A model generated the notes under the pieces. The model saw only the letters and a program-made list of their open reading frames with translations. It did not search any database and was not told where the DNA came from. 64,000 nucleotides of DNA from Legionellaceae bacterium (GTDB lineage Bacteria > Pseudomonadota > Gammaproteobacteria > UBA12402): positions 1,865 to 65,864 of the forward strand of contig PANR01000018.1 in assembly GCA_002707695.1 (NCBI GenBank). Direction: 5' to 3'. The first letter of the stretch is position 1. Every line of letters begins with the position of its first letter. A program made the translations under genes and the position numbers. Shown here in pieces: positions 36,032 through 46,795 of this stretch.

Positions 36032-36325
36032 TCAACCTCTCAATAAGCGCTCAATTGTTTTTGGATCCTTCTGGATTAATTTTAACAGGACTTTAGCTGG
36101 ACCTTGAGGCTGACGTGTCCCCTGCTCCCAATGCTGCAGCGTTCTCAAATTAAATGAGTACAGAGCTGCAAATTGCTCTTGCGTCAATCCAATTTTTTGA
36201 CGAATCTTTCTAACATCAACCTCGCCTCGCAACACAATATGCTCAATTCCCTTCGACTTATCACCTTTCATAAACTCAATGGCATCTTCTAAGCCCTTTT
36301 TCAATCGCTGCCCCATGTCACTCAT
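36032..36325 (-). CDS. higA: HTH antitoxin (HigA2/NadS-like)
   Basis: The 97-aa protein has an HTH (LTQEQFAALYSFNLRTLQHWEQG) and is downstream of, and overlapping, the RelE/ParE-family toxin. Confidence 0.7.
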   Translation of the reverse strand: MSDMGQRLKKGLEDAIEFMKGDKSKGIEHIVLRGEVDVRKIRQKIGLTQEQFAALYSFNLRTLQHWEQGTRQPQGPAKVLLKLIQKDPKTIERLLRG

Positions 36326-36672
36326 TTTACACCTCGCCTGTAACTTAATTTCAATTCATTGGCCAATTTAGACAACATCTTTAGCTCTGATTTATCAAGA
36401 TCTTCTTTGTCATGCTTTGAATAAAGATCCAGCAACACAAGTGGGGCCGTATTATTATAGAAATAATAAATCACTCTCACTCCACCTCTTTTGCCTTGGC
36501 CCGATTGCCTCCATCTTAATTTTCTCAAACCACCACTGCCAGGAATCACATTTCCCGACTCTGGAAACTGTGCCAAAAAAGAAATCATTAGAGACCTCTC
36601 ATCATCTGTCAAATACTTCTTGGCCCCACCCAAAAAACAAGGCATCTCAACAACACTGCAATATTCTAGCAT
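36322..36672 (-). CDS. higB: RelE/ParE-superfamily toxin (HigB2-like)
   Basis: The region GGLRKLRW..GKRGGVRVIYYF...LLDLYSKHDKEDL matches HigB2-type toxins. The true start is possibly the internal Met at MPCFLGG. Confidence 0.65.
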   Translation of the reverse strand: MLEYCSVVEMPCFLGGAKKYLTDDERSLMISFLAQFPESGNVIPGSGGLRKLRWRQSGQGKRGGVRVIYYFYNNTAPLVLLDLYSKHDKEDLDKSELKMLSKLANELKLSYRRGVK

Positions 36673-40135: not shown

Positions 40136-41491
40136 TTAAAGAGTTTTAGGAACAGCTGCTCGCAGCCCACCCGCTGCAGCACCATCTGCACCGCTGTGCA
40201 ATGTGGCTGCTGCGCTGAGTGAACCTGTTGGTTTGCTTAAGTACTCAGCTAATTCAGAATAATAGCTAGTTGGTTTGCCAAGTTTTGTATATGCCTCAAC
40301 AGCTGAACTAAACAACGCTTTTGGATCCTCACCCTTTTCTACTAACAACCACCCTTCTGCTTCTTGTAAATTAGCCGTATAAAACGCTTGCTGATCGGCA
40401 CTAGTGTGCTTAATCGCGTCGCTAAAAGCAGCGCGCGCAAATTGATAGTGCTGCAATCTTAAATGACAACGGCCAATATTGAGCAGTAGTGTCGCTTTTT
40501 GTTGGGGTGTGTAACGATCACTGTTTTTTTGTCGCTCTTGATAAAGCTCAAGCGCACTTTGATAACGCCCGGCTTGATAAAGTTTAGCGGGATTTAACCG
40601 CACATCAAAAACAAATTGAAAAGTAAAAGGCGTAAGTGCTTCACCCAATCGAAGCATCTTAACCGTAGGATAAGGTGCTTGTCTTGCGAGTCTGACAGCC
40701 GCCATAGACAAACGCTGGTTATCTAAAAATCGAAGTGTAACCTCCTCACTAGCCAGATAGCGGCTTGGATCGGGTGAAGCTTTGGCTTCGTCTATAAAAG
40801 GTTTCATCTGCGGGTAGGGGCAGCTACGCCTAAATTTTTCGTCTGCCATAGGCACTGTAACGAGACGAGCCACTTCGATTCGGTGATGAAACGTCGCCAA
40901 TAGATCTGCTTCCTTTCCTGCCAGCGCTGGAATGGTATCTTTAAAAATTTCTACAAATGGATCATTGGCTTCACCGCTCATATTGGGCTGAAAATAACAT
41001 ACCACGTGAAACCCACTTTCAGGGAATACCTTTGCGCTTCGCATTGCATCAACACACCCTTTCGGATCGGCTGCATCAGTTTTGACAAACGTTATATGGT
41101 CAAAACGCTTATCAGCATACACATTGGTAAAAAATGCAGAATAGTTGAACCCAGTGCTAACTAAATCAATATCTGTCAACACAAGTTGATAGCGAATTTT
41201 TTCTTTCTGACAAATCATATCGATAAGCGGAACGAGAAACGCATAGCCGCAAGCAACATCACAAATCTTGAGTACTTCGCCTGGCGCCAATCGCTTAGCA
41301 TGCTTTTGAATCAAATGATACATGGTATCGTAAGCATAGATCCCACACACCAACATCAGTGCACGAGTCTCTATACCGGCGACGGTTCCTGCAAGAAAAC
41401 ACATGATGTGCGCTTTCAATTCCGCATAGAGCGCTTGCTTCGCTTTAGGCAAGTTTTCATAAAATTCATTCAGCTTGGGATTCGATGGCAT
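40136..41491 (-). CDS. orphan protein: class-I methyltransferase-like N-terminal region plus TPR-like C-terminal region; candidate secreted effector
   Basis: LKICDVACGYAF followed by LTDIDL resembles SAM-MTase motifs I and post-I. The C-terminus has TPR-like helices and a GC-rich Ala/Gly tail. Confidence 0.35.
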   Translation of the reverse strand: MPSNPKLNEFYENLPKAKQALYAELKAHIMCFLAGTVAGIETRALMLVCGIYAYDTMYHLIQKHAKRLAPGEVLKICDVACGYAFLVPLIDMICQKEKIRYQLVLTDIDLVSTGFNYSAFFTNVYADKRFDHITFVKTDAADPKGCVDAMRSAKVFPESGFHVVCYFQPNMSGEANDPFVEIFKDTIPALAGKEADLLATFHHRIEVARLVTVPMADEKFRRSCPYPQMKPFIDEAKASPDPSRYLASEEVTLRFLDNQRLSMAAVRLARQAPYPTVKMLRLGEALTPFTFQFVFDVRLNPAKLYQAGRYQSALELYQERQKNSDRYTPQQKATLLLNIGRCHLRLQHYQFARAAFSDAIKHTSADQQAFYTANLQEAEGWLLVEKGEDPKALFSSAVEAYTKLGKPTSYYSELAEYLSKPTGSLSAAATLHSGADGAAAGGLRAAVPKTL

Positions 41492-41747
41492 CTTTTCTCA
41501 CTCATCAAGCCTATTGACTTGATCATTTTTTGCTATACTTGGTGAAATAAGGCCCAGATGCTAGCACAACGGCTTGCTGATAGCAAAAGCATGCTAACGC
41601 ATTGATTAAAATGGCATCCCCGATGGAAAATAACTTGCCGCATAATCAAGTCAAATGATATATTCGTTTGCACTCATCAACGAATATCAATTAAAAATAT
41701 TTGCACAATAACGCATAAAGCAACTACGTAGAAAGAGGGGAATTTGC

Positions 41748-43352
41748 ATGAAGTTTGTTGACTTTATCTCTACCGAGACTCATCCCATTGATTCAGAAAA
41801 CCAACTGAAAAAAGCAATGATGGCCTTTTTTCACACCGCGTTAATTAAGCCCTATCTAGAAGCAATATTTCGGACGGGCGAAAGCAAAGTAAAAGAAATT
41901 AAGGCAGTGTTTAACCCACTGATCAATGAGTACCATGAGGCTATCGAGAGCTCCCCATTTATGGAAAATTTCGATTGGGCATTCAGCTCGCTACTCGAAG
42001 CATCCCCGGCTGATGAAGAAACAAAGCAACGTTTTGCAGCAACACTCGCAGAAATAAGGCCAATGCTTTTGCCGCAAGCGGCACGCCACCCAACCGTCGT
42101 TGCTGTTGAAGAACGGTTGACTCGACGTATAAGGGATGAAGGAAAGAAGCTCTTAATGGCCGAAAATAATTTAGCTTTTGAAAAAGCGAAAGCAATATTT
42201 TACGAAGAAGGACGTTTTGTCGATTTTTATGAATTTGTCACGCTTGCCTGGGGTGCATCTTCGCCCGAGGCAGCTCACGCACAAACCTTCACTCGCCTTC
42301 AATATATTGCCTACCTTCAATTTGCTTCGAATTTGGTGGCCCCGCTATCTGAGCAAACACTTTATTCAGTAAACAAAGTTAAAGCCTGTGAGCTGCGTGG
42401 AGAGCGTATGAGAGTTGTCAATTTAATGCGCGATAGCCAAAAAAAATATGAAGACATTTTAGCAAAAGTTACTGATCTAGAATCCAAATATGCGCAATTA
42501 GACAAGGCCTACCAACAGCTTCCTCCATGCGAACCCGGCTGTGGCCACACCGGCGGCATTGGCTGCCTTGCTACCACAGGGCCTGAGCACATTGATTTAC
42601 TTCAACAACTAGGCCTAAACCACGGTGAACTTCACAAAGCTGATGCTGAGCTCAGCGAATATTCTCATTTTTTATCATCGGCTGATGGCGAAATGTGTGA
42701 GCCACCGGATGGGCTGAAAAAAATGCAGGCCTTACTAAAATATTGGCAAAAAAACGCGCCAAGATTGCGTCAACGCGCGCAAGATATAGCAGCCTTGTGT
42801 CAATTCAAGCCGGCCAGCACTACTGAATATGACATTATCTATCGGCTAGTCAGTGAGGAAGAGCGAACATCTCTTTGTGCAGGCAAATGCTTTGCTCAGC
42901 ATGCTGGCTCTTTAGAAAGAGAAAAATGGTTTTATTACAAGGAAGGTAAGCCAGGTGTTGACCATCGATACTGTTGCGGCATTTATCTTTATAAAGGTGC
43001 TTTGGATCTGCTGCTTTCCTTACAGCAATCTGATGGAAAGTTTGCAACAGTCGTTGAAAAAGGAGATGCAGAACCTGACTGTTTTGGTATTCATGAAGAT
43101 GCCCTGCCTTGTGTAAACAGCATGATTCATCATGTAACCATTGTAGACTGTAAAGCACTGAGCAAAAAAACAACCGTCACTTTTCGCAAAAACCCACCCA
43201 CTATGCCTGATATACTGCTTCCCAAAATAGTTGATGATGCAGAAGAAACACCCTTGCCGCCTAGCGCTACTGGCACTACTCAACATTTTTTTTCACCAAC
43301 AGAGGAAACTTCAGCTGCAGCAGCTGCACCGCCAGCAAGGGCGACAAAATAA
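41748..43352 (+). CDS. orphan Cys-rich protein of unknown function (within the tRNA-associated islet)
   Basis: The 534-aa ORF has no recognisable family. Cys clusters (CEPGCGHTGGIGC, YCCGIY) are present, along with an Ala/Pro-rich tail. Confidence 0.35.
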   Translation: MKFVDFISTETHPIDSENQLKKAMMAFFHTALIKPYLEAIFRTGESKVKEIKAVFNPLINEYHEAIESSPFMENFDWAFSSLLEASPADEETKQRFAATLAEIRPMLLPQAARHPTVVAVEERLTRRIRDEGKKLLMAENNLAFEKAKAIFYEEGRFVDFYEFVTLAWGASSPEAAHAQTFTRLQYIAYLQFASNLVAPLSEQTLYSVNKVKACELRGERMRVVNLMRDSQKKYEDILAKVTDLESKYAQLDKAYQQLPPCEPGCGHTGGIGCLATTGPEHIDLLQQLGLNHGELHKADAELSEYSHFLSSADGEMCEPPDGLKKMQALLKYWQKNAPRLRQRAQDIAALCQFKPASTTEYDIIYRLVSEEERTSLCAGKCFAQHAGSLEREKWFYYKEGKPGVDHRYCCGIYLYKGALDLLLSLQQSDGKFATVVEKGDAEPDCFGIHEDALPCVNSMIHHVTIVDCKALSKKTTVTFRKNPPTMPDILLPKIVDDAEETPLPPSATGTTQHFFSPTEETSAAAAAPPARATK

Positions 43353-43413
43353 GGCCATCAGCCATAGACAAAGTCAAACAAAAAACAACAACGTCCATGA
43401 TATGACTGAAACA

Positions 43414-44241
43414 CTACAAACAAAAACAATCAGTATTATCAATCGATTTTGAGTAGAGATAACAATTTGGAAACCCAATCAAGCCGGCTAACACGGGGAT
43501 TTTTATGCCATGCACTTTAAATGCCTGGTGTGACAATTTTATTTCGTTCATATCTTCAACCCCAACACAGTCCTCAAGTTTGCAATCAAAATATTCAGGT
43601 TTCTCGTAAGGCATCATAAACGACTTGATAGGATCGCCATTTGCTGCATGAAAAGGTGAAATAAACTCAGGAGCTACCAATCCTTTTTTCACAAAAGCGT
43701 CTTTGACCTGCAGCTTGAGAGCATGAGCAAATTTTTCAACTGCTTCGTGTATGGTTAGCAATGAACGTTGCAATAAAATTTCAATCTGTTCAAGATAGTA
43801 ATGATACTCTAAAAGAGGAAAATGATAGAGAATACGCTTGGGTTTTAATAATTCAATTTTTTCAACCTGCCATGCAATCAAATACTGATGATATTTACCC
43901 AACGTCTGTGGCACATACATTTTAGTCACCCTATCGCCGGAATGGATTTTTTCAACGGCTTTTTTTCTTTCAAGCGGTGAAGTCAACGCCCGACGAGATG
44001 GTGGATTTCCTCTACCTTTTTTTTCAAACTCAAGCTGCCATCTTGCGTCCAGTAGACAAATCCCAGTAATGACTGTAGATCGATAATCATCAGGCGGCAG
44101 CGGCCACCAGCCTTCATAGGTAGTTTGATTGGCACTTAATGATAATGCTATCTTCGTGGGATTTTGATCGTCAGAAAAATGTCGAGTTGCTAGCTTAGCG
44201 CCGGTATCGACAGCCCACCCAGCATAATTGATAGTAGCCAT
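43414..44241 (-). CDS. orphan protein of unknown function (within the tRNA-associated islet)
   Basis: The 275-aa ORF has no recognisable motifs. Confidence 0.35.
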   Translation of the reverse strand: MATINYAGWAVDTGAKLATRHFSDDQNPTKIALSLSANQTTYEGWWPLPPDDYRSTVITGICLLDARWQLEFEKKGRGNPPSRRALTSPLERKKAVEKIHSGDRVTKMYVPQTLGKYHQYLIAWQVEKIELLKPKRILYHFPLLEYHYYLEQIEILLQRSLLTIHEAVEKFAHALKLQVKDAFVKKGLVAPEFISPFHAANGDPIKSFMMPYEKPEYFDCKLEDCVGVEDMNEIKLSHQAFKVHGIKIPVLAGLIGFPNCYLYSKSIDNTDCFCL

Positions 44242-44318
44242 TTACAGCCCAAATTATAAACTAAACCTACATGGGAGCCTGAGGGCCAGGCAAGTATAAT
44301 AATTAACATTGATTAAAA

Positions 44319-44394
44319 TGGCATCCCCGACGGGAGTCGAACCCGTGTTTTCACCGTGAAAGGGTGGTGTCCTAGGCCTCTAGACGACGGGGAC
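44319..44394 (-). tRNA. tRNA-Glu (anticodon UUC)
   Basis: The reverse complement is GTCCCCGTCGTCTAGAGGCCTAGGACACCACCCTTTCACGGTGAAAACACGGGTTCGACTCCCGTCGGGGATGCCA. It folds as a cloverleaf with anticodon loop CUUUCAC and an encoded CCA. Confidence 0.9.
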
Positions 44395-44579
44395 CCAATA
44401 TAATCTTCGTCTTTTCACTTTATGCATCGCTGCGTTCGGCCTCAAACTTCAGTCACTTACACAAGTAAGCTCCTTCATTTTCATCCTCAGCATCTCGCCT
44501 AAAGCAAAAATACTTGACTCTATTTCTTTTTGCCTGACTTTGCTCTAGCCGGCTTGCCATGCGCAGCCTTAGCGATGCA

Positions 44580-44655
<76 letters not shown>

Positions 44656-44726
44656 GCAAAGACCGAGATTCTATGCAGCTCAACCAACCTTGTCAATGAT
44701 AAACTAGCGATATTCTTAAGGATCGG

Positions 44727-45113
44727 CTATTGCAAACCGTAGACTTTAACCTCATCAAAATACTTGAAGTCTTTATCAAGCGTCAGAATAGATAAATCGT
44801 GCTTTTTGCATACCGTCGCAATCAGTGAATCTGTGCTCGACACAGTCACCCCACGACCTCTCAAAGCAGCCATCCACTGGCCAGCCAATACAAAATCATT
44901 TCGTTCAATATCAACATAAGGCAGCGCCGATAATAAGGGTAATACCTTAGTTTTTTCTTTGTTATGCAGCCCTCGGATAAGCTCCATTTCGACGATGCCA
45001 CATAATACAACCTCATCAGCATCCAACGCTTTTTCCATCAACTCAGACACTAGTCCAGGACCGTCGCGGAAATAGTCTATCCAGGCAGACGTATCCACCA
45101 ACACCTTGCGCAC
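44727..45113 (-). CDS. vapC: PIN-domain toxin VapC
   Basis: The 128-aa protein has the N-terminal VLVDTSAWIDYF motif (first PIN Asp) and further acidic residues. Confidence 0.8.
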   Translation of the reverse strand: MRKVLVDTSAWIDYFRDGPGLVSELMEKALDADEVVLCGIVEMELIRGLHNKEKTKVLPLLSALPYVDIERNDFVLAGQWMAALRGRGVTVSSTDSLIATVCKKHDLSILTLDKDFKYFDEVKVYGLQ

Positions 45114-45371
45114 TTATTCTTCATCCTTATCAAGGTCACGCAATTGGCGCCAGTCATTGGCAATGCCAACTTTCCCGCGTAACTTTTTGATTTCTTGTAT
45201 TTTTCGATAACGGATCCACTCTTCTATAGCCATGTTAACTGCCTCGGTTCGCTTGCGTGCATGCGTATAAGCCATTAAATCTGCGAGCAAGCTGTCTGGA
45301 ATAGTCACTGTTGTTCTCATAGCCACCTCATCACTAAAATCACTATATTTTGATGTTAGCATAAACATCAA
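45114..45371 (-). CDS. vapB: VapB-type antitoxin
   Basis: The small ORF abuts vapC. It has an RHH-like region (MRTTVTIPDSLLADL) and an acidic C-terminus. The real start is probably the internal Met. Confidence 0.6.
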   Translation of the reverse strand: MMFMLTSKYSDFSDEVAMRTTVTIPDSLLADLMAYTHARKRTEAVNMAIEEWIRYRKIQEIKKLRGKVGIANDWRQLRDLDKDEE

Positions 45372-45397
45372 AATATACCATCAAATTATTCGGATAT

Positions 45398-46795
45398 TTA
45401 TGCTTTTTTGCAGCATAACAACGCCTGCTCAAGGCGCTGGAGGGTTTTTTCACGCCCAAGAAGCGCCAAGGTGGCATCGATGGAGGGCGAAATGGTGCTG
45501 CCAGTAACGGCCACGCGGATGGGCTGGGCGACCTTGCCCATACCGAGATTAAGCTCAGTGGACGTGCCTTTGATAACCTCATGCAAGGCCTCACGCTCCC
45601 AATGCTCAAGCGCACTGAATTTAGCAAGAAGCGCCTCAAACACGGCAGCCGTTTCCGTGGTCAAAAATTTCTTTGCGGCCTTTTCATCATAGTGTTTAAC
45701 ATCCTGATAAAAATAGCGGCTCATGTCGGCCATTTCTTCGAGCGTTTTAGCGCGATCTGCCAATAAGGCCACCAAATCAATCAACTCGGGCCCTTGGCTC
45801 ACATCCAAATCACGTTTGAGCAAGTGAGGTTTTAACACGGCCGCAACATCATGACGATTAAGTGATTTAATATAATGTTGGTTTAACCATAATAATTTTT
45901 CATGATTAAATACCGCGGGTGAACGACTAATGTTTTTAACATCAAACAAAGCAATCATGTCTTGTTTCGAAAAAATTTCCTGATCGCCACACGACCATCC
46001 CAAGCGCACTAAATAGTTTAATAAAGCTTCTGGCAAATAACCATCTTCACGATACTCCAACACACTCACCGCACCATGACGCTTAGAAAGTTTTTTGCCA
46101 TCATCGCCATGAATCATCGGCAAATGGCCATAAACAGGAGGGTTAACACCCAGTGCGTTAAAAAGATTAATTTGTTTAGGCGTGTTACTTAAATGATCAT
46201 CACCACGCAACACATGCGTGATGTCCATATCTGCATCATCTACTACAACGGTAAAATTATAAGTGGGTGTACCATCGGTTCGCGCTAAAATTAAATCATC
46301 CAATTCACTGTTATTCACGGTAATACGGCCACGAATCATGTCATCGAATTCAACCGCGCCAGACTCAGGATTTTTAAACCGCACAACAAAAGGTGCATCT
46401 TTTTTTTCTGTCAATTCACGACAGCAACCATCATAACGTGGATTTTCTTTATTACTCATTTGTGTTGCACGCAATTTTTCGAGCCGTTCTTTAGAACAAT
46501 AACAACGATAGGCATTCCCTGACTCAAGCAATTGATCAATCACCGCTTTATAACGATCAAAACGTTTGGTTTGATAAGTGATTTCTCCATCATGCTCCAG
46601 GCCCAACCAGGCCATGCCTTCCAAAATAATTTGTGTAGCCTCGTCAGTCGAACGCTCACGATCGGTATCTTCAATACGCAAAATAAACTCACCCTCTTGG
46701 GAGCGGGCAAACAAATAAGCAAATAATGCTGTCCGTGCACTGCCAACATGAAAAAACCCGGTGGGACTTGGTGCAAAACGTGTTTTAATCTTCAT
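45398..46795 (-). CDS. gltX: glutamyl-tRNA synthetase
   Basis: The protein has the HVGSARTALF (HIGH) and KLSKR (KMSKS) motifs and is 465 aa long. Confidence 0.9.
   Translation of the reverse strand: MKIKTRFAPSPTGFFHVGSARTALFAYLFARSQEGEFILRIEDTDRERSTDEATQIILEGMAWLGLEHDGEITYQTKRFDRYKAVIDQLLESGNAYRCYCSKERLEKLRATQMSNKENPRYDGCCRELTEKKDAPFVVRFKNPESGAVEFDDMIRGRITVNNSELDDLILARTDGTPTYNFTVVVDDADMDITHVLRGDDHLSNTPKQINLFNALGVNPPVYGHLPMIHGDDGKKLSKRHGAVSVLEYREDGYLPEALLNYLVRLGWSCGDQEIFSKQDMIALFDVKNISRSPAVFNHEKLLWLNQHYIKSLNRHDVAAVLKPHLLKRDLDVSQGPELIDLVALLADRAKTLEEMADMSRYFYQDVKHYDEKAAKKFLTTETAAVFEALLAKFSALEHWEREALHEVIKGTSTELNLGMGKVAQPIRVAVTGSTISPSIDATLALLGREKTLQRLEQALLCCKKA

What the first reader, a model, noticed from the sequence alone, without database searches (positions are those of the whole stretch)
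41600..44330. Perfect 24-bp direct repeat of the tRNA-Glu 3' end brackets a 2.7-kb islet of orphan genes (att-site scar)
CATTGATTAAAATGGCATCCCCGA occurs at 41600-41623 and again at 44307-44330. The second copy comprises the last 12 nt of tRNA-Glu (44319-44330) plus 12 nt of its 3' flank. This is exactly the arrangement left by site-specific integration into a tRNA 3' end (attL/attR). The bracketed 2.68 kb contains only two ORFs with no detectable homology signatures: a Cys-rich 534-aa protein and a 275-aa protein. No integrase is present. The islet is therefore either a decayed integrative element or a cargo module mobilised in trans. The orphan proteins are candidates for horizontally acquired virulence or host-interaction factors. 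By eye, the islet also looks more GC-rich than its surroundings.
Basis: seen in the sequence. Interest (0 to 1): 0.7.

Follow-up and report, generated by a model that had tools for sequence, protein, structure and literature searches.

The report
Integrase-less islet at tRNA-Glu
A 2.7-kb two-gene insert in an uncultured marine Legionella-family bacterium is bracketed by an exact 24-bp repeat of the tRNA-Glu end. It looks like the ordinary leftover of a mobile element that has lost its integrase, not a new kind of system.

Summary
CATTGATTAAAATGGCATCCCCGA occurs exactly twice in the window, at 41600-41623 and 44307-44330, where chance predicts none. The second copy is the last 12 nt of tRNA-Glu(UUC) plus 12 nt of its 3' flank. 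Independent metagenome assemblies show the same structure.

The att-scar reading is the best explanation but is unproven. The islet holds two convergent genes and no recombinase. A distant relative with the same gltX-tRNA-Ala-tRNA-Glu order has a degraded P4-type integrase directly after its tRNA-Glu. No empty site was found: every public copy comes from one Tara Oceans population, a 'Legionellaceae bacterium' MAG.

Three sub-claims fail or weaken:
- The islet is not GC-rich: 42.3% against 42.6% for the window, with ordinary tetranucleotide and codon usage.
- The 534-aa protein is only mildly Cys-enriched.
- The 534-aa protein is not an orphan. It belongs to an uncharacterised family of 62 clusters with a conserved C-terminal domain. 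Two members are fused to OTU deubiquitinase domains. Its closest relative sits inside a conjugative type IV secretion operon.

The 275-aa protein is a true singleton.

Closest known kind: a CIME-like or decayed tRNA-integrated islet. Interest is low to moderate.

The parts
41600..41623 (-). Distal direct-repeat copy (attR-like). It is a displaced fragment holding the last 12 nt of tRNA-Glu (41612-41623) plus 12 nt of the tRNA's 3' flank (41600-41611). It lies in the divergent intergenic region between the 451-aa gene and the 534-aa gene.
   Evidence: Exact match. It extends to 26/27. No tRNA is called here. The sequence past 41626 shows no similarity to the tRNA body.
41748..43352 (+). 534-aa cargo gene (GenBank MAZ77401.1, CMF39_01820). 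It belongs to an uncharacterised family with a conserved C-terminal domain of about 150 aa. The invariant residues are R366, E372, K393, E442 and H449.
   Evidence: ORF. One distant homologue was found by word index (aligned). An exhaustive profile search found 62 family clusters. Alignment A2. No Pfam or PDB match, with OTU fusions in 2 members. Name.
43414..44241 (-). 275-aa singleton gene (MAZ77402.1, CMF39_01825). It starts 65 nt from the tRNA-proximal repeat and is transcribed in the same direction as the tRNA, which is the usual position of an integrase. It has no recombinase signature. It ends in CFCL.
   Evidence: ORF. No homologue other than itself among 5.8 billion proteins. No match in Pfam, PHROGs, NCBIfam, PADLOC or PDB. 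The AlphaFold2 model is unusable, with pLDDT 34.
44307..44330 (-). Proximal direct-repeat copy (attL-like). It comprises the 12-nt 3' flank (44307-44318) plus the 3' end of the intact tRNA-Glu (44319-44330).
44319..44394 (-). Intact tRNA-Glu(UUC), the presumed integration target.
   Evidence: ARAGORN. Rfam RF00005 at 54.3 bits.
44580..44655 (-). tRNA-Ala(GGC), upstream partner of tRNA-Glu. It is part of the conserved gltX-tRNA-Ala-tRNA-Glu arrangement and is context only.
   Evidence: The same order occurs in L094 and L097, and partly in L098.

Best explanation
The 2.7-kb segment is the remnant of a site-specific integration into the 3' end of tRNA-Glu(UUC) in an uncultured marine Legionellaceae bacterium.

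Inferred mechanism:
1. An element carrying a tyrosine (P4-type) integrase recombined its attP with an attB made of tRNA positions 65-76 plus about 12 nt downstream.
2. This rebuilt the tRNA end at 44307-44330 (attL). It pushed the original tRNA end and flank 2.7 kb away, to 41600-41623 (attR).
3. The integrase and any transfer genes were then lost. Two cargo genes and both att sites remain.

This is the structure called a CIME (cis-mobilizable element), or a decayed genomic islet. The cargo is one member of an uncharacterised protein family that also travels on a conjugative type IV secretion element, plus one singleton gene. Both are plausible but unproven host-interaction proteins.

Shown directly: the repeat and its relation to the tRNA, the absence of a recombinase, and the family membership of the 534-aa protein and the genomic context of its relative. 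Inferred: the integration event itself, the loss of the integrase, and the function of the cargo.
For: 1. The exact 24-bp repeat (26/27 when extended) occurs only at these two places. One copy ends the intact tRNA-Glu, and the other is in the same orientation with a sharp loss of similarity beyond it.
2. Independent assemblies agree, so the structure is real.
3. The islet is fully occupied by two ORFs with spacers of 124, 61 and 65 nt. Neither ORF matches any recombinase family.
4. In relative L094 (GltX 65% identical, same gltX-tRNA-Ala-tRNA-Glu order) a broken P4-type integrase follows tRNA-Glu directly and in the same direction. It consists of an Arm-DNA-bind_3 ORF (E = 2e-9) and a weak Int_N fragment. 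A 2452-aa gene and an ISL3 transposase come next.
5. The gene content after gltX and the tRNAs differs in every relative examined.
6. The closest relative of the 534-aa protein (P0002, E = 2e-22) lies between virB8 and virB9 of a T4SS operon. That operon carries CsrA, VirB2-B11, VirD4 and a MobA/TraI relaxase, so it belongs to a conjugative element. P0002 sits in a patch of lower GC there.
7. This architecture is established in the literature. CIMEs are elements that lost their integration and transfer genes but kept attL and attR (PMC5704250). Legionella ICE-beta-ox is flanked by an identical 43-bp repeat, one copy of which lies inside a tRNA gene (PMC4010831).
Against: - No integrase or integrase fragment is present in the islet, and none was found among the window ORFs that were scanned.
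- There is no pseudogene debris. The islet is unusually tidy for a decayed element.
- GC, tetranucleotide and codon usage cannot be told apart from the host's. The insert is therefore either old or came from a donor of similar composition.
- No empty site or alternative occupant was seen in a close relative. All public copies are from one population. The nearest relatives have only 82%, 76% and 65% GltX identity, and either lack retrievable DNA or end before the site.
- Half of the repeat lies outside the tRNA, which in my recollection is less common than identity blocks confined to the tRNA.
- Only one of three relatives with readable DNA downstream of tRNA-Glu shows an integrase remnant.
Confidence: 0.6

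Rival explanations
1. The islet is a still-functional minimal integrative cassette, that is, an active CIME. It has intact attL and attR and is excised and integrated in trans by an integrase encoded elsewhere in the genome or on a visiting ICE. On this view it is not a dead scar.
For: - Both repeat copies are perfect over 24 bp, although the distal copy is under no tRNA constraint.
- The islet is compact, with no pseudogene debris.
- CIME mobilisation in cis and in trans by related ICEs is documented (PMC5704250).
- A relative of the cargo gene travels on a conjugative element.
Against: - No integrase was found in the 64-kb window.
- No circular junction, empty site or second insertion context of either gene turned up in any public collection searched.
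- 24 identical bases are expected by default unless divergence exceeds a few percent, so the perfect identity says little.
Confidence: 0.15
2. The repeat has nothing to do with site-specific recombination. It came from a local duplication, or from illegitimate or homology-facilitated recombination that inserted or rearranged DNA next to the tRNA.
For: - No recombinase is present.
- Composition is identical to the host's.
- Half of the repeat lies outside the tRNA.
- No terminal inverted repeats or arm-like repeats were detected inside the ends. The best inverted match is 7 nt, with P = 0.14.
Against: - The repeat boundary falls at the tRNA 3' end region, which is the classical integrase target.
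- The orthologous tRNA-Glu in L094 carries an integrase remnant.
- The bracketed genes are lineage-specific, and one has a relative on a conjugative element.
- To my knowledge, a 24-bp duplication is too long for a transposase target-site duplication.
Confidence: 0.15
3. The 275-aa singleton at the integrase position is itself an unrecognised recombinase or recombination factor that moves the two-gene element.
For: Position and orientation only. It is the first gene after attL and is transcribed in the same direction as the tRNA. It has no homologue to contradict the idea.
Against: - It shows no similarity to any tyrosine, serine or DDE recombinase family, nor to anything else.
- It has no relatives at all, whereas a working mobile element would be expected to leave copies elsewhere.
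- The structure model is uninformative.
Confidence: 0.03

Closest known systems
CIME (cis-mobilizable element), as defined for Streptococcus ICESt1/ICESt3-type elements and in ICEberg. The definition is quoted in PMC5704250.
   Same: The islet is bounded by a direct-repeat pair, one copy of which is the 3' end of the target gene. It has no integration or transfer genes and holds a small cargo-only interior.
   Different: - CIMEs were defined where a cognate ICE is known and mobilisation was shown. Here no cognate ICE or integrase is known and nothing is shown experimentally.
- The host is a Legionellaceae MAG rather than a Firmicute.
- The only link to a conjugative element is a cargo homologue with 24% identity.
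Legionella tRNA-integrated ICEs and genomic islands (ICE-beta-ox, Trb-1, lvh/p45, LGI). ICE-beta-ox is described in PMC4010831.
   Same: The bacterial family is the same, by the NCBI label. These elements also integrate into a tRNA gene and have identical flanking repeats, 43 bp for ICE-beta-ox. The relative of the 534-aa protein sits in a T4SS operon preceded by a csrA-like gene, an arrangement typical of these ICEs.
   Different: - Those elements are 40-130 kb and carry an integrase, a T4SS and regulators. This islet is 2.7 kb with none of them.
- Their targets are other tRNAs, for example tRNA-Arg for ICE-beta-ox.
- The T4SS of the relative's contig is at most 37% identical in VirB4 to any PLSDB plasmid, and its host is unknown.
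P4-type integrase islands at tRNA 3' ends, the acceptor-stem/CCA sublocation described by Williams (2002, Nucleic Acids Res 30:866). This is cited from memory because the paper was not retrievable.
   Same: The repeat covers the 3' strand of the acceptor stem, the discriminator base and CCA. The orthologous site in L094 carries a P4-type arm-binding-domain fragment.
   Different: No integrase is present here. Half of the identity block lies downstream of the tRNA.

Membership tests
tRNA-integrated genomic island / integrative element | Direct repeats bound the element, and one copy forms the 3' end of an intact tRNA gene. | tested here: met
   The match is 24/24 exact and 26/27 when extended, and the tRNA is intact.
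tRNA-integrated genomic island / integrative element | A site-specific recombinase (integrase) gene lies inside the element. | tested here: not met
   Neither ORF matches a recombinase in Pfam, PHROGs or NCBIfam. The spacers of 124, 61 and 65 nt leave no room for a fragment.
tRNA-integrated genomic island / integrative element | Presence varies among related genomes (an empty site or a different occupant). | tested here: inconclusive
   Only one population is sampled, and every copy is filled. More distant relatives (82-62% GltX identity) have different genes after the tRNAs, and one has an integrase remnant. At that distance, however, loss of synteny is not specific evidence.
tRNA-integrated genomic island / integrative element | Composition is atypical relative to the host. 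| tested here: not met
   GC is 0.423 against 0.426. Tetranucleotide distance is at the 38th percentile. The codon index is within 1 sd.
CIME (cis-mobilizable element) | attL and attR are retained while integration and transfer genes are absent. | tested here: met
   This holds at the sequence level only. That the repeats act as att sites is inferred.
CIME (cis-mobilizable element) | The element derives from an ICE or IME, or can be mobilised by a cognate ICE or IME. | not testable with these tools
   The only indirect hint is the homologue of the 534-aa protein inside a conjugative T4SS operon. No cognate integrase or attP was found.
Tyrosine recombinase (for the 275-aa protein at the integrase position) | A Phage_integrase catalytic domain, or any recombinase domain, is present. 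| tested here: not met
   No family matches at E <= 0.1 in Pfam, PHROGs, NCBIfam or PADLOC, and there is no PDB match at E <= 1.
Legionella-type translocated effector (for both cargo proteins) | The protein has a eukaryote-directed domain or motif and is translocated by Dot/Icm. | tested here: inconclusive
   - Two family members of the 534-aa protein carry OTU domains, best E = 4e-13. The window protein itself has only a sub-threshold otubain hit, E = 0.018.
- Other family members occur in Pseudomonas.
- The 275-aa protein ends in CFCL, which is CaaX-like. However, 2 of 43 other ORFs also have Cys at position -4.
- Translocation cannot be tested here.

The most novel reading that the evidence does not exclude
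The islet is not a dead scar but a working minimal mobile cassette. On this reading its 275-aa singleton, at the position and orientation normally held by the integrase, encodes a previously unrecognised recombination function specific for the tRNA-Glu end.

A milder version concerns the 534-aa family. Its C-terminal domain, with invariant R, E, K, E and H residues, would be a new enzymatic effector or toxin domain spread by conjugative elements.
Probability: 0.04. Interest if true: 0.75.

Novelty: new member of a known kind. Interest (0 to 1): 0.25.

Why it matters
If the reading is right, this is one more example of how Legionella-family bacteria pick up lineage-specific genes at tRNA hot spots, here in an uncultured open-ocean member. 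That is useful for annotation but not surprising.

Two by-products may be more useful than the att scar itself:
- An uncharacterised protein family (62 clusters, conserved C-terminal domain, occasional OTU fusions, one member inside a conjugative T4SS operon) that has no Pfam or PDB counterpart.
- A true singleton gene at the integrase position.

Neither opens a long-standing question.

Tried and rejected
- **Empty sites.** Contigs encoding the exact 534-aa, 451-aa and GltX proteins are all the same filled locus. The 24-mer scan of JGI metagenomes gave one contig, also the same locus. The IMG/VR scan gave none.
- **GTDB species representatives.** There is no relative of the 534-aa protein, and the nearest GltX is 62% identical.
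- **Close relatives by GltX.** The 82% relative has no retrievable DNA. The 76% relative's contig ends 570 bp after gltX.
- **Structure.** AlphaFold2 gave pLDDT 34 for the 275-aa protein (single sequence) and 43 for the 534-aa protein (two-row alignment). Both models are unusable, so no fold search was run.
- **Searches with no hit for either cargo protein.** PHROGs, NCBIfam, PADLOC, PDB sequences, PLSDB plasmids by tblastn, and a family-pattern scan of IMG/VR.
- **Shared neighbour gene.** The 275-aa protein was compared with the 261-aa gene downstream of P0002. There is no similarity, E = 0.57.
- **Inverted repeat.** A 7-nt inverted repeat (ACTTGCC) just inside both repeats caught my eye, but it is compatible with chance, P = 0.14.
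- **Extra degenerate att copies.** These would indicate tandem accretion. Only three 3-mismatch matches to a 16-mer turned up, all inside polysaccharide genes, and I judged them chance.
- **Assembly artefact.** Rejected. The repeat is shorter than the assemblers' k (contig names carry k127 and k141), and independent contigs agree.
- **Small RNAs near the att sites.** Only the two tRNAs were found.
Full report
**1. The observation**

The 24-mer CATTGATTAAAATGGCATCCCCGA occurs exactly twice in the window, at 41600-41623 and 44307-44330, both on the + strand. No additional copies appear with up to three mismatches, and dinucleotide-preserving shuffles give none.

ARAGORN places tRNA-Glu(UUC) at 44319-44394 and tRNA-Ala(GGC) at 44580-44655, both on the minus strand. 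Rfam confirms both. Reading the sequence, the tRNA 3' end is ...CCCGTCGGGGATGCCA. So 44319-44330 is tRNA positions 65-76: the last T-stem base, the 3' strand of the acceptor stem, the discriminator and CCA. Positions 44307-44318 are the 12 nt downstream. The repeat extends to 26 of 27 positions, after which the two contexts are unrelated.

Two ORFs fill the interval: 534 aa at 41748-43352 (+) and 275 aa at 43414-44241 (-). The spacers are 124, 61 and 65 nt.

**2. Is it real, and where is it from?**

The window is part of a 103-kb Tara Oceans scaffold (TARA_SAMEA2621176_METAG-scaffold_58). GenBank lists the three genes at the site as hypothetical proteins MAZ77400-MAZ77402 of a 'Legionellaceae bacterium' MAG.

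Independent assemblies agree. A 6.7-kb contig (L002) contains both repeat copies and an identical islet. L087 covers the left junction, and L089 and L092 (CEQS01034970) cover the right junction. The repeat is shorter than the assemblers' k. An assembly artefact is excluded.

**3. Sub-claims that fail**

- The islet is not GC-rich. Its GC is 0.423 against 0.426 for the window. Its tetranucleotide distance from the window average is at the 38th percentile of all 2.7-kb windows. GC3 and a codon-adaptation index of both genes lie within about one standard deviation of 43 other ORFs.
- 'Cys-rich' means 13 Cys, or 2.4%, against 1.31 +/- 0.96%.
- 'No homology' holds only for the 275-aa protein (see section 4).

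**4. The cargo**

*The 275-aa protein.* It has no homologue other than itself among 5.8 billion clustered proteins. It has no match in Pfam, PHROGs, NCBIfam, PADLOC, PDB or PLSDB. Its single-sequence AlphaFold2 model is unusable, with pLDDT 34.

It sits where an integrase normally sits: first gene after the tRNA-proximal repeat, in the same direction as the tRNA. Nothing in the sequence supports a recombinase.

It ends in CFCL, which fits a CaaX box loosely. Host prenylation of CaaX-bearing Legionella effectors is documented (PMC2916131 and PMC13081727, listed). However, 2 of 43 other ORFs in the window also have Cys at position -4, so this is only a lead.

*The 534-aa protein.* It has one distant homologue by word-index search: P0002, 585 aa, 24% identity over 90% of the length, E = 2e-22. 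An exhaustive profile search of 1.84 billion representatives found 62 clusters, 51 of them at E <= 1e-10. Most align only to the C-terminal part of about 150 residues.

In a 61-sequence alignment, R366, E372, K393, E442 and H449 are invariant. R343, Q384, E390, W394, F395, K438, C445, G447, E450 and L453 are nearly invariant. The motifs are YR.VS..E, ERxKWF and NEP.CxGIHEDxL.

The family has no Pfam or PDB counterpart. Two members carry an OTU cysteine-protease domain at the C-terminus, best E = 4e-13. Other members are ordinary 'hypothetical proteins' of Pseudomonas, such as WP_134173971.1. The two-row AlphaFold2 model of the 534-aa protein was also poor, with pLDDT 43. The function of the domain is unknown.

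*Context of the closest relative.* P0002 lies between virB8 and virB9 in an operon that reads CsrA, VirB2, B3, B4, B5, B6, B8, [P0002], 49 aa, 261 aa, VirB9, B10, B11, VirD4. A methylase and BglII-like endonuclease pair and a MobA/TraI relaxase follow. This is a conjugative element. P0002 sits in a patch of 33-35% GC within DNA of 41-43% GC. The T4SS is remote from anything in PLSDB, with at most 37% VirB4 identity.

So the only known relative with genomic context is cargo on a conjugative element. The 261-aa neighbour of P0002 is unrelated to the 275-aa protein.

**5. Is the tRNA-Glu site an integration site?**

No close relative is available. GTDB representatives contain no relative of the 534-aa protein, and their nearest GltX is 62% identical. 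In the large protein collection the nearest GltX proteins are 82%, 76% and 65% identical.

| Relative | GltX identity | What follows gltX and the tRNAs |
|---|---|---|
| JGI 3300072015 contig | 82% | No DNA could be retrieved. The gene table keeps tamB-tamA-reductase-gltX. Different genes (92, 175, 381 and 146 aa) surround a 472-nt gap that could hold the tRNAs. |
| L093 | 76% | The contig ends 570 bp after gltX. |
| L094 | 65% | It keeps mreBCD-yhdP...gltX-tRNA-Ala-tRNA-Glu. A broken P4-type integrase follows tRNA-Glu directly and in the same direction: a 59-aa Arm-DNA-bind_3 ORF (E = 2e-9) and a 126-aa ORF with a weak Int_N match. A 2452-aa ResIII-like gene and an ISL3 transposase come next. 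|
| L097, L098 | 62%, 63% | The gltX-tRNA-Ala-tRNA-Glu order is kept (only partly visible in L098). No integrase is seen. |
| L095 | 64% | The tRNA pair is inverted. No integrase is seen. |

The orthologous tRNA-Glu has therefore been used by an integrase-bearing element at least once in this wider group, and the content after it differs in every relative examined. At these distances, however, that is supportive rather than decisive. No repeat of the tRNA end was found within 10 kb in L094.

**6. Explanation**

A site-specific, P4-type integration occurred into the acceptor-stem/CCA end of tRNA-Glu. It left attL at 44307-44330 and attR at 41600-41623. The recombination and transfer genes were then lost. 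[quoted passage not shown] Legionella ICEs show the same flanking geometry at full size. ICE-beta-ox has an identical 43-bp repeat with one copy in a tRNA gene (PMC4010831).

The following points count against it:
- No integrase is present.
- There is no compositional signal.
- No empty site was found.
- The interior is unusually tidy.
- Half of the repeat lies outside the tRNA.

I put this reading at 0.6. The rivals are:
- The same structure, still mobilisable in trans: 0.15.
- A non-site-specific duplication or insertion: 0.15.
- A novel recombinase role for the 275-aa singleton: 0.03.

Chance and assembly artefact are excluded. No integrase was seen among the window ORFs that were scanned or annotated. 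The rest of the window is core chromosome: a polysaccharide cluster, tamAB, yhdP, mreBC and gatAB.

**7. Comparison and novelty**

In kind, this is a small, integrase-less, tRNA-linked islet, which is a known class. It passes the repeat/tRNA test and the CIME 'no integration genes' test. It fails the 'integrase present' and 'atypical composition' tests for a classical genomic island. The variable-presence test is inconclusive.

I rate it a new member of a known kind, with interest 0.25. The more useful residue is the uncharacterised 534-aa family, with its conserved C-terminal domain, OTU fusions and a member on a conjugative element.

Noticed in passing
window 44727-45371 (-): A VapB/VapC (PIN) toxin-antitoxin pair lies between gltX and tRNA-Ala. 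In relatives L094 and L097, gltX is followed directly by the tRNAs, so this pair is probably a separate lineage-specific insertion.
   Followed up: partly
window 45344-45377: A perfect 14-nt palindrome with a 6-nt spacer (TATATTTTGATGTT / AACATCAAAATATA) overlaps the start of vapB (I19). It may be the operator of the VapBC operon.
   Followed up: no
window 40136-41491 (-): The 451-aa left-flank gene (MAZ77400.1) matches only TPR repeats, at residues about 300-370. Its N-terminal 300 residues match nothing. By eye it has a DVACGYAF stretch that resembles a SAM-methyltransferase motif I. It may itself be lineage-specific cargo, so the true island could extend further left.
   Followed up: no
L083 2202-3959 and L084 6332-8089: P0002, the closest relative of the 534-aa protein, is inserted between virB8 and virB9 of a conjugative T4SS operon headed by a csrA-like gene. 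It sits in a patch of 33-35% GC within 41-43% GC DNA. The host is unknown, and VirB4 is at most 37% identical to any PLSDB plasmid.
   Followed up: partly
alignment A2 (family of the 534-aa protein; window protein residues about 340-470): This is an uncharacterised conserved C-terminal domain with invariant R366, E372, K393, E442 and H449. It spans 62 clusters and has no Pfam or PDB match. Two members are fused to OTU domains, and members also occur in Pseudomonas.
   Followed up: partly
L094 11458-21395: In a relative with 65% GltX identity, tRNA-Glu is followed by a degraded P4-type integrase, a 2452-aa ResIII-like protein and an ISL3 transposase. No tRNA-end repeat was found within 10 kb.
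   Followed up: partly
window about 36032-36672 (L001 4285-4925): A second toxin-antitoxin pair (RelE-like and MqsA/HTH_3-like, both weak Pfam hits) lies next to a 233-aa and a 44-aa gene that have no family. This may be another small accessory patch about 5 kb left of the islet.
   Followed up: no
window 1-30600: The first 30 kb is a polysaccharide / O-antigen-type cluster. It includes two PMT_2 glycosyltransferases, DegT aminotransferases, GFO/IDH/MocA oxidoreductases, Wzz, and the sulfate-activation genes ATP-sulfurylase/APS kinase and PAPS reductase.
   Followed up: no
L094, L097, L098, L095 and window 44319-46795: The order gltX-tRNA-Ala(GGC)-tRNA-Glu(UUC) is conserved across gammaproteobacterial relatives that are only 62-65% identical in GltX. 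The tRNA pair is inverted in L095.
   Followed up: partly
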